This document shows positions 54,451 to 57,400 of a DNA stretch of 64,000 bases, piece by piece. This DNA comes from an uncultured archaeon (GTDB lineage: Archaea > Aenigmatarchaeota > Aenigmatarchaeia > CG10238-14 > SCSR01). The notes under the pieces were generated by a model that saw only the letters and a list, made by a program, of their open reading frames with translations, was not told where the DNA came from and ran no database searches. Position numbers and translations under genes: made by a program. Numbering within the stretch: the stretch's first letter is position 1; each line of letters starts with the position of its first letter. Where the stretch lies: assembly GCA_964400475.1 (NCBI GenBank), contig CAYNTH010000003.1, positions 3,283 through 67,282 of the forward strand, given 5' to 3'.

Positions 54451-57400
54451 AACAATCTTGGGCGATTAGTAATGGCGGGCTGAAATGGTCGGACGAATCC
54501 TCCCATCTTACACCCCCATTCTATCAACCTTATCGTCTATAAGTGCCCTCGTCCCATTTCCGATTCTTGCGAATCAGATTTGGGAACGGCTGTCTCTTTT
54601 TCCGGACGGCTTCGAGCTTAGATGCTTTCAGCTCTTATCCGAAATGGCGTAGCTGCCCGGCGCTGCAATTAACAACCGGTAAACCAGAGGCCACGGAAGG
54701 ATGTTCCTTTCGTACTTTCCCTTCCTTCCAGTCAGACAACCAACACCTCCAGTAGATAGCAACCGAACTGTCTCACGACGTTCTGAACCCAGCTAACGTC
54801 CCCTTTTAACCAGTGGACACCTGTACCCTTGGCTGCTTGTGCACAGCCAGGTGAGGGGGAGCCGACAACGACGTACCAACGAGCCTCGTCAATGTGAGCT
54901 TTCGGAGGCCACGGGCCCATTATCCCCGGGGTAGCTTTTCTGACACCACTGGCAGCCATTAAGGCCAATCCAGTGTATCGCTAGCCCTCGCTTTCGCGTC
55001 CGGATTCCTTGCTGTGCGGAATCCGGTCAAACCAACTTTTACGCTTACATTCTGCTCGAGATTTCTTTGAGGCGATTGAATACGACTCATTAGCTACTCC
55101 CAAAACATCATCCCATATGCTGGCTGCTTTACGGCCAAAACGCATATAGTCATCCTGGAGCGGTTTAATCACTACCGCATTCAATCGTGACCTCGATGAG
55201 TTGATCTTAGGGCTCCCTTGATCAGTTGTCAAGGGAGTACCGCCCCAGCCGAACTGCCCACCTGATGGTGTCCCCCCTCGGGGGTAAGCAATACCTTTCC
55301 GACAGACTAGTGTTACACTTTCCCCTCGGTTTTTGTCTAGCGACAAAACCTGATAACGGGTCCTAGCTACGCTTTACAATCGGAAGTGAATCACAACATC
55401 AAGATGCAGTAAAGCTCCACGGGGTCTACGTTTCCCACTGGAGGTCTCCGGCCAATTCTCCGGAATGGCAATTTCGCTGAGTTTTAGTCTGGGACAGTGA
55501 AGAGATCGTTAAGCCATTCAGACGGGTCGTCAATTAAACGACAAGGGATTACGCTACTTTACGACGGTCAGAGTTACCGCCGCCGTTTACCGGGGCTTGG
55601 ACCTGTTGAAACAGGTTATAACACACCGGTACTGGGCAGGCATCAGGGACTATACTAGTGCTTTCGCATTTGCAGTCCCCTATGTTTTTGTTAAACAGTC
55701 GTCCCTTCCTAGTTACTGTGACCTGCTGTCCCTTTCGAGACTACAGGCATGGCTTGTACCGAAGATACACCACTAATTTGCCGAGTTCCCTAGACTAAAT
55801 TATCTCAAGACACCATTGCCTTCTCAGCATGGGTACCTGTTACGGATCTTGGTACGAACATGAAAAATTCTTACAAGTTCCCTTTTCACGGGCTCCATGA
55901 ATCGGCTGAACTTCGCATACACGAAGCTCTTCCACCTTAACCAGCTTCTCCTCATTACAAGACTCCACTGGATTAAATGGCTTACTTACGTCAACCTATC
56001 TGGAAGCGTTAGAAACTTGTCTTAACGTTGCCGTGTGTATTTTCATGGCGCAGGAATATTAACCTGCTTCCCTTTCTCCAAATCCGGTTAGGGGTTGGAT
56101 TAGGATCGGCTAACTGCCAGCTGATGATCATTGCTGGCAAACCCGCACCCATTAGGTGGCAAGGATTCTCACCTTGCTACCGCTGCTACTTTTGGCAGGA
56201 TTATCGATTCTACGAGGTCCACACGAACTCACGTCCGTGCTTCCGCCCGCGCAGAACGCCTCTCTACAGAAACTATACTTTCGTATAGTAACCCGGGGTA
56301 TCGGTAGTGAACTTAGTCTCGTCCATCTTCAGGGCCTGACCCCTAGATAGGTAAGCTGTTACGCACTTATTAACTGATGGCGGCTTCTAAGCCTACAGTC
56401 CTATTGTATTAGGAACCAGACGCCCTTTGCCACTTAGTTCACATTTAGAGACCTTAACCTCGGTCAGGGTTGTTTCCCTTTCGGATATTGGGCTTTCCCC
56501 AATACCCGCACTCCAGTCTTCTCAGGCTGTAATAGATTCGGAGTTTGACAGTATGGGTGGACCTTTCGATCCTTGACCATTCAATCAGTATCTCTACCCT
56601 ATTACACGCCTCCGACTAGGCTGCGCTGAGACGCATTTCGAGAGGAACCAGCTATTACCGGTCTCGTTAAGCTTTTCACCCCTATCCCCAAATCACCCGA
56701 GCGAATTGATACTCAGCATCGGTTCGGCCCTCCACCCCCCTTTCGAAGGGCTTCAGCCTGTTCAGGGATAGCTCGACCGGTTTCGGGTCTTGTCCTAGTA
56801 ATTAAAGGCACTTTCACACCTCATCCCACACAACTCGAAGTTGCTACGGATAATCGCTTTCGCTTAGACTTCCCGGCGAAAACCGGTTAATCTCACTACT
56901 AAAACAAACTCCCTGCCACGTGTTCCAAAACGAACGTCATGACACTGTAAGCGCAATGTCGTACTTATTGCTTACACAATGTTCCTTCCAAAGCGCACCT
57001 TTCGCGCCATGACAGACTATACCCAATTGGTTTCAGGATCTTTTCACCTCGCTTCCGCGATACTTTTCAACTTTCTGTCATCATACTAGTTCGCTATCGG
57101 ACTTCGTTAGTATTTAGGGTTGGGTGTTAATGCCACCCAAATTCTTGCTCCATATCCAAGGAACAGTACTCTGGATCCTCGCCATTTCCCTCTTGTTTTC
57201 TCTTACGGGGCTATCACCCTTTTTCACGCTGCATTCCAGCAGACTTCTGATCAACAAGTTAGGGAAGGCACGAGTCCAAAACTCCACAACCTTAACTGCT
57301 TTCACAGTAAGTTCAGTTTGCCCTTTGCCGCTTTCACTCGCCGTTACTAACAGCATCGCTAAATTGCTTTCTTTTCTCCTGCTTACTAAGATGTTTCAGT

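What the first reader, a model, noticed from the sequence alone, without database searches (positions are those of the whole stretch)
54700..54930. 23S rRNA carries substitutions at normally invariant peptidyl-transferase-ring and sarcin-ricin-loop positions
Seen in sequence (RNA sense), compared with consensus sequences recalled from memory:
- The PTC block reads GGUACGUCGUUGUCGGCUC (54859..54877), where bacteria and archaea almost universally have GGCACCUCGAUGUCGGCUC.
- The block around A2451 reads GGGGAUAAUGGGCC (54917..54927 region), against GGGGAUAACAGGCU.
- The sarcin-ricin loop reads AGUACGAAAGGAAC (54706..54716), against AGUACGAGAGGA.

By manual alignment to E. coli numbering these would be C2452U, A2453G, C2496U, C2499G, A2503U and G2661A. 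The GNRA loop is retained as GAAA, and the G2455:U2496 and C2457:G2494 pairs keep the base of H89 intact.

Other conserved blocks are also unusually diverged, for example GUCGUUUAAUUGACGAC where GUCGGGUAAGUUCCGAC is expected.

Inference: this is either a very fast-evolving ribosome, with altered sensitivity to antibiotics and ribotoxins, or a degenerating copy.
Basis: partly seen in the sequence, partly recalled or inferred. Interest (0 to 1): 0.6.

Follow-up and report, generated by a model that had tools for sequence, protein, structure and literature searches.

The report
Aenigmatarchaeota ribosome with rewired active-site shell
The only large-subunit ribosomal RNA gene of this tiny DPANN archaeon carries base changes at several "universal" positions around the ribosome's catalytic centre, tRNA exit site and factor-binding loop; most of them are shared across its phylum (Aenigmatarchaeota), so this is a working, lineage-specific ribosome variant of a kind recently described in other archaea.

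Summary
Rfam's archaeal LSU model aligns window 54446-57568 (minus strand) end to end. C2496U is simply the archaeal consensus.

I found further changes: G2576U, C2394A, U2555C, A2059U and G2056A. The catalytic first shell is intact.

The gene is the only LSU copy in a 649-kb genome, and helices keep their pairing through compensatory changes.

Across about 45 LSUs from other Aenigmatarchaeota genomes:
- U2452 occurs in 24/25, G2453 in 23/25, U2576 in 34/35 and A2394 in 19/20.
- The GAAA sarcin-ricin loop occurs in 193/301 genomes, against at most 3 canonical loops in an LSU context.
- Positions 2499, 2503 and 2059 vary between families.

It is therefore neither a pseudogene nor an assembly artefact.

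G2661A also recurs in more than 120 other species, and several PTC positions vary in other archaea.

Divergent archaeal PTCs are already described for Thermoprotei and Methanomethylicia (Nissley et al. 2024). This scan met a similar case on other DNA (e1-4506001). This one is a new variant: a different clade, apparently mesophilic, with a different set of positions.

Altered drug or ribotoxin sensitivity is inferred, not tested.

The parts
54446..57568 (-). Large-subunit (23S-type) rRNA gene, 3123 nt, the only LSU copy in the genome
   Evidence: RF02540 at 2504.8 bits, model 1-2987. One match in the whole 649-kb genome. GC 49% against 38% for the genome.
54914..54927 (-). A-site-cleft strand GGGGAUAAUGGGCC. 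A2451 (54920) is kept; C2452U is at 54919 and A2453G at 54918.
   Evidence: CM alignment; coordinates. U2452 in 24/25 and G2453 in 23/25 readable Aenigmatarchaeota LSUs.
54859..54877 (-). PTC ring strand GGUACGUCGUUGUCGGCUC. C2499G is at 54872 and A2503U at 54868. U2500 and U2504-C2507 are kept. U2496 is normal for archaea.
   Evidence: In the phylum, position 2499 is G23/U8/C5/A4 and position 2503 is C29/U8/A3.
54811..54824 (-). A loop (H92) CAGGUGUCCACUG. G2553 is kept. U2555C is at 54816. The closing pair is G2551.A2557 (54820/54814). A2549-U2559 replaces G-C.
   Evidence: C2555 in 15/20 aligned Aenigmatarchaeota. CC at 2554/2555 in several relatives.
54795..54795 (-). G2576U, in the bulged nucleotide beside H90 that is known as the linezolid-resistance position
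   Evidence: CM alignment: consensus UGAgCu against ours UUAGCU. U in 34/35 Aenigmatarchaeota LSUs. G in 22/23 sampled Nanoarchaeota.
54703..54716 (-). Sarcin-ricin loop AGUACGAAAGGAAC. G2661A at 54709 turns the GAGA tetraloop into GAAA. The bulged G2655 and A2660 are kept.
   Evidence: The pattern occurs in 193/301 genomes of the phylum. The canonical pattern occurs in 18/301, of which only 2-3 lie in an LSU context.
55424..55433 (-). Tunnel-entrance strand 2054-2063, AAACGUAGAC. G2056A is at 55431 and A2059U at 55428. A2060, G2061, A2062 and C2063 are kept.
   Evidence: CM alignment; coordinates. Position 2059 is A18/U16/G2 in the phylum. U2503 is found only with U2059 (7/7) and A2503 only with A2059 (3/3).
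54976..54976 (-). C2394A, the E-site nucleotide that contacts A76 of deacylated tRNA
   Evidence: CM alignment: consensus UAgCGAAC against ours UAGCGAUA, followed by an intact helix. A in 19/20 Aenigmatarchaeota, C in 23/25 outgroup archaea and 37/37 bacteria.
55526..55542 (-). Helix 71 (E. coli 1945-1961), GUCGUUUAAUUGACGAC. The stem is kept by compensated pairs and one loop base differs.
   Evidence: Relatives show further covarying versions.
55062..55187 (-). Expansion segment of about 126 nt in the hairpin loop that corresponds to E. coli 2300-2316
   Evidence: CM alignment shows 126 inserted nt where the model has 4. It lies between E. coli 2306 and 2307. It folds as one long hairpin at -44.7 kcal/mol, z = -2.3. 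The extra 90-140 nt are seen in most family f1 relatives with a short, intron-free segment, but not in f5 or f28.

Best explanation
This is the functional, single-copy LSU rRNA of an Aenigmatarchaeota (DPANN) archaeon. Its lineage fixed a set of derived bases in the layers around the ribosome's functional centres while leaving the catalytic first shell untouched.

Shown:
- The changes are real and in the claimed register.
- U2452, G2453, U2576, A2394 and the GAAA sarcin-ricin loop are near-fixed across the phylum.
- Positions 2499, 2503, 2059, 2497 and 2555 differ between families.
- Neighbouring interactions are kept in altered form. A2453-U2500 becomes G.U in this genome and G-C in relatives that have C2500. 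C2452.U2504 becomes U.U. Several helices swap G-C for C-G or A-U.

Inferred:
- The variant arose through fast, lineage-specific rRNA evolution typical of small-genome, host-associated archaea, followed by purifying selection on the new states.
- The archaeal architecture, including a normal short archaeal uL3, tolerates such changes.
- The altered bases line the A-site cleft and tunnel entrance and coincide with positions of known resistance mutations. The ribosome is therefore predicted to bind PTC-cleft inhibitors (anisomycin, chloramphenicol, oxazolidinones, pleuromutilins) and GAGA-specific ribotoxins differently.
For: Gene identity, register and copy number:
- Full-length CM match in the claimed register.
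- Only one LSU copy in the genome.
- First-shell bases are unchanged in this genome and in 18-20 of 20 aligned relatives: G2061, A2062, C2063, G2251-2253, G2447, A2450, A2451, U2504-U2506, G2553, G2583-U2585, A2602.

Structure is maintained:
- Apparent compensated pairs at 2121:2177, 2127:2161, 2290:2342 and 2348:2369, paired by complementarity only. 2549:2559 and H71 are confirmed by the CM structure lines.
- I count about 7 non-canonical pairs flagged in the 3' 650 model positions.

Spread in the lineage:
- Same states across the order and phylum.
- The GAAA loop occurs in 193/301 genomes, against at most 3 canonical loops in an LSU context.
- Position 2453:2500 covaries: G.U in 19, G-C in 4.
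- uL3 is an ordinary archaeal uL3 that keeps the Trp finger.
- All named uL3 homologues are Aenigmatarchaeota.

Literature:
- Natural divergent PTCs in archaea, their link to drug-resistance positions, and uL3 length (10.1101/2024.11.12.623245).
- C2452U gives tiamulin and chloramphenicol resistance in T. thermophilus. Its table gives 100% conservation for C2452 (PMC7345174).
- G2576U reduces linezolid inhibition (PMC6449356).
- An E. coli strain whose only ribosomes carry A2660C/G2661A grows normally at 32-42 C (PMC5829649).
- Removing the C2394 base does not impair in vitro translation (PMC4615901).
Against:
- No structural or biochemical data exist for any Aenigmatarchaeota ribosome, so the functional consequences are extrapolated from bacteria and haloarchaea.
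- The outgroup set was selected for A2661 and G2576. It is biased towards unusual lineages and says nothing about those two positions.
- The link between 2059 and 2503 may reflect one clade rather than repeated covariation.
- G2453 with G2499 (17 genomes) is not an obviously isosteric replacement for the A2453...C2499 contact.
- A2056.C2612 and U2460.C2490 are uncompensated mismatches.
Confidence: 0.82

Rival explanations
1. Adaptive resistance. The substitutions were selected because they protect the ribosome from PTC-targeting natural products or from ribotoxins made by hosts or neighbours. Under this reading the fixed states U2452, G2453, U2576 and A2661 are a natural multi-drug-resistant configuration.
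For: The changed positions coincide with resistance mutations:
- C2452U and A2453G in PMC7345174.
- Linezolid and anisomycin resistance mutations at position 2453 (there A2453C), among the positions cited by Nissley et al..
- G2576U in PMC6449356.
- C2452 and U2504 act as the 'spearheads' of linezolid binding (PMC4652758).

The states are near-fixed across a whole phylum.
Against: - No inhibitor, producer or selective agent is known.
- Positions 2499, 2503 and 2059 wander between families, which looks like relaxed constraint.
- Unrelated sites (E-site C2394A, H71, SSU) are also diverged, which points to a general rate increase.
- G2661A recurs in many unrelated lineages.
Confidence: 0.2
2. Thermal or structural stabilisation, as proposed for the C2554/C2555 A-loop variants and divergent PTCs of hyperthermophilic Thermoprotei.
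For: U2555C occurs in this genome, and CC at 2554/2555 occurs in several relatives. These are the rare A-loop variants reported to stabilise the 50S subunit (PMC9976906).
Against: - LSU GC is only 49% and genome GC 38%, which does not look like a hyperthermophile.
- Most changes replace G or C with U or A (G2576U, C2452U, C2394A, G2661A).
Confidence: 0.07
3. Degenerating copy or pseudogene. A decaying rRNA gene accumulates changes at essential positions.
For: Many substitutions at conserved sites, and a few uncompensated mismatches: A2056.C2612, U2460.C2490 and A2547.G2561.
Against: - Only LSU gene in the genome.
- Full-length CM match.
- Compensatory changes.
- First shell intact.
- Identical states in many other genomes.
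Confidence: 0.02
4. Assembly, chimera or binning artefact. The odd bases come from mis-assembly, or the rRNA contig belongs to another organism.
For: The genome is a MAG in 15 contigs, and no reads could be laid.
Against: - The gene lies inside a contig of more than 70 kb with the same GC as the genome.
- A same-genus genome has the same blocks at 92% identity.
- The states recur in independent assemblies across about 25 families.
Confidence: 0.02

Closest known systems
Naturally divergent peptidyl-transferase centres of Thermoprotei and Methanomethylicia (Nissley et al., bioRxiv 10.1101/2024.11.12.623245; Pyrobaculum calidifontis cryo-EM)
   Same: - Lineage-wide natural variation in the 2447-2453 and 2500-2504 shell of an archaeal PTC, with the catalytic bases kept.
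- Rare C at A-loop positions 2554/2555.
- Overlap with drug-resistance positions.
- The short archaeal type of uL3.
   Different: - Different clade: DPANN Aenigmatarchaeota, not mentioned in that paper.
- The rRNA GC suggests a mesophile.
- Different substitution set: C2452U, A2453G rather than A2453C, G2576U, A2503U/C, A2059U, and C2499G. In this genome there is no G2447A, C2501A, U2500C or U2504C.
- Here the E site (C2394A) and the sarcin-ricin loop (G2661A) are changed as well.
Laboratory and clinical 23S rRNA resistance mutations (C2452U, A2453G, C2499A/U, U2500C, A2503G, G2576U)
   Same: The same nucleotide positions, and in part the same base changes, in the A-site cleft and its second shell (PMC7345174, PMC4652758, PMC6449356).
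   Different: Those are single mutations selected by a drug, usually at a fitness cost. Here several are combined, fixed over a phylum and embedded in covarying neighbours, with no known selecting drug.
GAAA sarcin-ricin loops elsewhere: the E. coli A2660C/G2661A mutant (PMC5829649), mammalian mitochondrial 16S rRNA (from memory), and more than 120 GTDB species found here
   Same: G2661A keeps a GNRA tetraloop and is compatible with life. It appears in other DPANN phyla, Thermoproteota, CPR bacteria, Aminicenantes, Planctomycetes, a Zymomonas mobilis record and a Streptomyces record.
   Different: In Aenigmatarchaeota it is a phylum-level state (193/301 genomes) and is combined with U2576. Elsewhere it is scattered.
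Earlier case in this scan: e1-4506001 (Brockarchaeota-related archaeon, 'rewired ribosome active-site shell')
   Same: The same type of finding and the same closest literature.
   Different: A different genome and phylum. I did not compare the substitution sets.

Membership tests
Archaeal LSU rRNA (Rfam RF02540) | Full-length match to the covariance model above the gathering score | tested here: met
   2504.8 bits against a gathering score of 50, model positions 1-2987.
Archaeal LSU rRNA (Rfam RF02540) | Catalytic and tRNA-binding first-shell nucleotides present (A2451, U2506, U2585, A2602, G2251-2253, G2553, G2061-C2063, G2447) | tested here: met
   All are present in this genome and in 18-20 of 20 aligned relatives.
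Naturally divergent archaeal PTC (sensu Nissley et al. 2024) | Substitutions at otherwise highly conserved positions in 2447-2453 and/or 2500-2504, shared by a clade | tested here: met
   U2452 in 24/25 and G2453 in 23/25. Position 2503 is C29/U8/A3. C2500 in 8/40 and C2504 in 2/40 across Aenigmatarchaeota.
Naturally divergent archaeal PTC (sensu Nissley et al. 2024) | Rearranged but preserved interactions among 2452/2453/2499/2500/2504 | tested here: inconclusive
   Sequence covariation fits: 2453:2500 goes A-U to G.U to G-C, and 2452:2504 becomes U.U. G2453 with G2499 is not explained. No 3D structure is available.
Naturally divergent archaeal PTC (sensu Nissley et al. 2024) | Short archaeal-type uL3 loop next to the PTC | tested here: met
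   uL3 (338 aa) aligns end to end with archaeal uL3 chains from solved archaeal ribosome structures (9e6q, 6skf, 1s72), with no bacterial-type extension in the two alignments shown (9e6q, 6skf). The motif ...KVRWSVPQAGQTG... is kept.
Naturally divergent archaeal PTC (sensu Nissley et al. 2024) | Association with hyperthermophily (as discussed for Thermoprotei) | tested here: not met
   LSU GC is 49% and genome GC 38%. This is a proxy only; the growth temperature is unknown.
rRNA pseudogene | Loss of secondary structure, truncation, or presence of an intact paralogue | tested here: not met
   Single copy, full length, compensated helices.
Drug-resistant ribosome (phenotype) | Reduced inhibitor binding or inhibition | not testable with these tools
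   Only positional coincidence with published resistance mutations.

The most novel reading that the evidence does not exclude
Aenigmatarchaeota would be a whole phylum of apparently mesophilic organisms whose ribosomes have replaced five or more 'universal' functional-site nucleotides at once:
- C2452U and G2576U in the A-site cleft and its shell.
- A2503C/U, with A2059U, at the tunnel entrance.
- C2394A in the E site.
- G2661A in the sarcin-ricin loop.

Together these would give a natural ribosome that is intrinsically insensitive to A-site-cleft antibiotics and GAGA-specific ribotoxins. They might also change nascent-chain sensing and E-site tRNA release. Such a ribosome would be a ready-made template for engineering mutable active sites.
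Probability: 0.25. Interest if true: 0.65.

Novelty: new variant of a known kind. Interest (0 to 1): 0.45.

Why it matters
C2452, G2576, C2394, A2503 and G2661 are textbook examples of invariant rRNA bases. They are drug or toxin contact points. C2452 is listed at 100% conservation in the table of PMC7345174, and C2394 is called 'universally conserved' in PMC4615901.

A whole phylum living with other bases there shows that their identity is not required for translation in an archaeal context. It extends the recently recognised diversity of archaeal active sites from hyperthermophilic Thermoproteota to small-genome DPANN archaea.

The case also weakens a purely thermal explanation. It contradicts the statement that CC at 2554/2555 occurs only in Thermoprotei. 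It offers natural combinations of mutations, such as G2453 with U or C at 2500 and U2452 with U2504, to test in engineered ribosomes.

On the practical side, universal LSU probes and resistance-calling pipelines that assume these bases will misread such genomes.

Tried and rejected
- Naming the genome by exact-protein look-up failed.
It gives a lower bound only and cannot inform on 2576.
- A gapped pattern meant to read 2576 and 2661 together was useless, because matched strings are cut at 80 letters. The 'of' argument needs a G handle.
- My first covariation script was mis-indexed. One search replaces it.
- I looked for the one Aenigmatarchaeota LSU with G2576 (G189) among the named loci and found no match.
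- uL3 was checked for a special PTC-proximal change and is ordinary.
- I considered an intron in the gene. The 126-nt insert folds as a simple helix extension inside a hairpin loop, so I read it as an expansion segment.
- The 5' 1630 model positions of the LSU were not aligned base by base.
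Full report
WHAT IS THERE

Rfam's archaeal LSU model (RF02540) matches window 54446-57568 on the minus strand over its whole length (model 1-2987, 2504.8 bits). 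The window lies in a 649-kb, 15-contig genome, and this is its only LSU gene.

The closest named relatives of its ribosomal protein uL3 are all annotated Candidatus Aenigmatarchaeota. LSU GC is 49% and genome GC 38%.

CHECK OF THE OBSERVATION

I fixed E. coli numbering with an annotated E. coli 23S gene and read the register from the covariance-model alignment, not by eye.
- GGGGAUAAUGGGCC: A2451 kept, C2452U at 54919, A2453G at 54918.
- GGUACGUCGUUGUCGGCUC: C2499G at 54872, A2503U at 54868.
- AGUACGAAAGGAAC: G2661A at 54709.

Coordinates were verified.

Three qualifications apply:
- C2496U is the archaeal consensus (T in 25/25 outgroup archaea).
- A2453 and C2499 are only weakly conserved in archaea (82% for A2453 in the table of PMC7345174).
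- The 'diverged' H71 block (55526-55542) is a stem whose pairs are all compensated, with one loop base changed.

- G2576U (54795).
- C2394A in the E site (54976).
- U2555C in the A loop (54816), with a G2551.A2557 closing pair.
- A2059U and G2056A at the tunnel entrance (55428, 55431).
- U2586C (54785).
- A2572, where most archaea have U.
- C1965U and A1966C.

The catalytic first shell is untouched: G2061, A2062, C2063, G2251-2253, G2447, A2450, A2451, U2504-C2507, G2553, G2583-U2585 and A2602.

IS IT A WORKING GENE?

Yes, on the available evidence:
- It is the only copy and is full length.
- I count about seven non-canonical pairs flagged in the 3' 650 model positions.
- 25 positions in E. 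coli 2035-2680 differ from a consensus shared by bacteria and outgroup archaea. Ten of them form five apparent compensated pairs: 2121:2177, 2127:2161, 2290:2342, 2348:2369 and 2549:2559. Only 2549:2559 was confirmed against the CM structure line.

IS IT LINEAGE-WIDE?

I collected LSU genes from relatives by CM search (unbiased) and by fetching around SRL hits in other families. That gave about 45 genomes from about 25 GTDB families.

Counts from distinct genomes:

| Position | Result |
|---|---|
| 2452 | U in 24/25 |
| 2453 | G in 23/25 |
| 2576 | U in 34/35 |
| 2499 | G23, U8, C5, A4 |
| 2503 | C29, U8, A3 |
| 2059 | A18, U16, G2 |
| 2500 | U32, C8 |

A2394 occurs in 19/20 aligned sequences.

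For the SRL, the GAAA pattern is present in 193 of 301 sampled genomes of the phylum. The canonical GAGA pattern is present in 18. Only two or three of those 18 lie in an LSU context. Two of them sit on short extra contigs of bins that also have a GAAA LSU.

Some states are therefore ancient and fixed in the phylum: U2452, G2453, U2576, A2394 and A2661. Others keep changing between and within families: 2497, 2499, 2503, 2059 and 2555. The U2503 of this genome belongs to a subgroup of its family, whereas most of the phylum has C2503.

COVARIATION IN THE PTC SHELL

In E. coli, A2453 pairs with U2500 and C2452 with pseudouridine 2504 (Nissley et al.). In H. marismortui, C2499 contacts A2453, and U2500 and U2504 contact C2452 (PMC4652758).

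In Aenigmatarchaeota:
- 2453:2500 is G.U in 19 genomes, G-C in 4, A-U in 1 and C/U in 1. Every C2500 with a readable partner has G2453.
- 2452:2504 is U.U in 24 of 25.
- U2503 occurs only with U2059 (7/7) and A2503 only with A2059 (3/3). These genomes may form single clades, so I do not claim proven covariation.

G2453 with G2499 (17 genomes) has no obvious isosteric rationale.

HOW UNUSUAL IS IT OUTSIDE THE PHYLUM?

Hits include:
- Woese-, Pace-, Nanohalo-, Micr-, Parv- and Undinarchaeota.
- Thermoproteota and Methanosarcinales.
- CPR bacteria, Aminicenantes, Cloacimonadales, Planctomycetes and Clostridia.
- A Zymomonas mobilis record and a Streptomyces record.

G2661A is therefore a rare but recurrent natural variant. 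An E. coli strain with only A2660C/G2661A ribosomes grows normally at 32-42 C (PMC5829649).

In the 25 outgroup archaea of that biased sample:
- 2453 is A/U/G/C and 2499 is U/A/C/G.
- 2503 is C or U in 7.
- U2452 occurs in 4.
- G2551.A2557 is common.

In a sample of Nanoarchaeota, G2576 is kept in 22 of 23 readable LSUs and is U in one.

What sets Aenigmatarchaeota apart is the phylum-wide combination, especially U2452, U2576 and A2394.

COMPARISON WITH WHAT IS KNOWN

Nissley et al. (bioRxiv 10.1101/2024.11.12.623245) reported 'highly divergent' PTCs in Thermoprotei and Methanomethylicia at positions 2447-2453 and 2500-2504. They solved the P. calidifontis ribosome and showed rearranged base triples. 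They linked tolerance to the short archaeal uL3 and noted the overlap with resistance mutations. The paper does not mention DPANN, Aenigmatarchaeota, 2503 or 2576.

Their earlier paper states that CC at 2554/2555 is seen only in Thermoprotei (PMC9976906). Here several Aenigmatarchaeota have CC, and this genome has UC.

The uL3 of this genome is an ordinary archaeal uL3.

This scan has met the same kind of finding on other DNA (e1-4506001 and several unfollowed notes).

MECHANISM AND CONFIDENCE

Best-supported reading (about 0.8): a functional, lineage-specific ribosome variant. It was produced by fast rRNA evolution in a small-genome archaeal lineage and is now maintained. Changes are confined to second-shell, tunnel-entrance, A-loop, E-site and SRL positions that experiments show to be tolerable:
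- C2452U mutants of T. thermophilus are viable.
- Removal of the C2394 base does not impair in vitro translation.
- G2661A is viable in E. coli.

The SSU is also very divergent (791 bits, best clan model bacterial; U1498C and A1499C). This favours a general rate increase over a targeted adaptation.

These bases line the A-site cleft and coincide with resistance mutations to chloramphenicol, tiamulin, anisomycin and linezolid. Altered inhibitor binding is therefore a fair prediction, but it is only an inference.

Selection by inhibitors as the cause (about 0.2) and thermal stabilisation (below 0.1, given 49% rRNA GC) are rivals. Pseudogene and artefact readings are each about 0.02.

LIMITS

- No reads or transcripts could be examined.
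- Counts come from MAGs and from motif matching that skips intron-split sites.
- The outgroup sample is biased.
- The 5' half of the LSU was not examined base by base.

Noticed in passing
window 55062-55187 (minus strand): An insertion of about 126 nt sits in the hairpin loop that corresponds to E. coli 2300-2316 (between 2306 and 2307). It folds into one long hairpin (-44.7 kcal/mol, z = -2.3). The extra 90-140 nt are seen in most family f1 relatives with a short, intron-free segment, but not in families f5 and f28, so it looks like a family-specific expansion segment.
   Followed up: partly
window 54553-54586 (minus strand): A second insertion of 34 nt relative to the archaeal LSU model lies near the 3' end of domain VI, after model position about 2882.
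   Followed up: no
genome contig C3:70338-71796, about 9.5 kb upstream of the LSU on the same strand (L173:1483-2941), outside the window: The SSU rRNA is not adjacent to the LSU and is very divergent:
- It scores only 791 bits, and the best clan model is the bacterial SSU.
- The 530 loop lies at nt 340.
- The decoding-region block reads AAGUCGCCACAAGG (U1498C, A1499C).
- No anti-Shine-Dalgarno match was found at the 3' end.

No 5S rRNA was detected in the window.
   Followed up: partly
L010, L013-L020, L022, L033, L037, L043 (relatives' LSU loci): Many Aenigmatarchaeota LSU genes are 3.6-4.7 kb long and carry large insertions. Several appear to break the gene right after GGGGAUA (about E. coli 2449-2450) in the PTC strand, which looks like an rRNA intron site.
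   Followed up: no
L002, L003, L004, L022, L026, L028 (A loop): Several Aenigmatarchaeota have CC at 2554/2555 (GGUGCCCAC). PMC9976906 reports this variant as seen only in Thermoprotei. Families f16, f21, f28 and f30 have A at the 2'-O-methylated position U2552 (GGAGUUCAC).
   Followed up: partly
L113 (Zymomonas mobilis AN0101), L089 (Streptomyces fumigatiscleroticus), L099 (Rickettsiaceae) and other loci: GAAA sarcin-ricin loops (G2661A) occur in cultured or well-known bacterial groups as well as in CPR and DPANN lineages. I did not check whether all rRNA operons of those genomes carry the change.
   Followed up: no
window 58424-59576: A tRNA gene (59505-59576, minus strand) lies between the SSU and LSU regions. 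A mechanical 373-aa ORF (58424-59545, minus strand) overlaps it by about 40 nt.
   Followed up: no
L175 (G236:C19, family f24): One Aenigmatarchaeota family (f24: 0/3 GAAA hits, 1/3 GAGA hits) may keep the canonical GAGA loop. The hit has an SRL-like flanking stem (GGGUC...GACCC). This could mark the branch point of the G2661A change.
   Followed up: no
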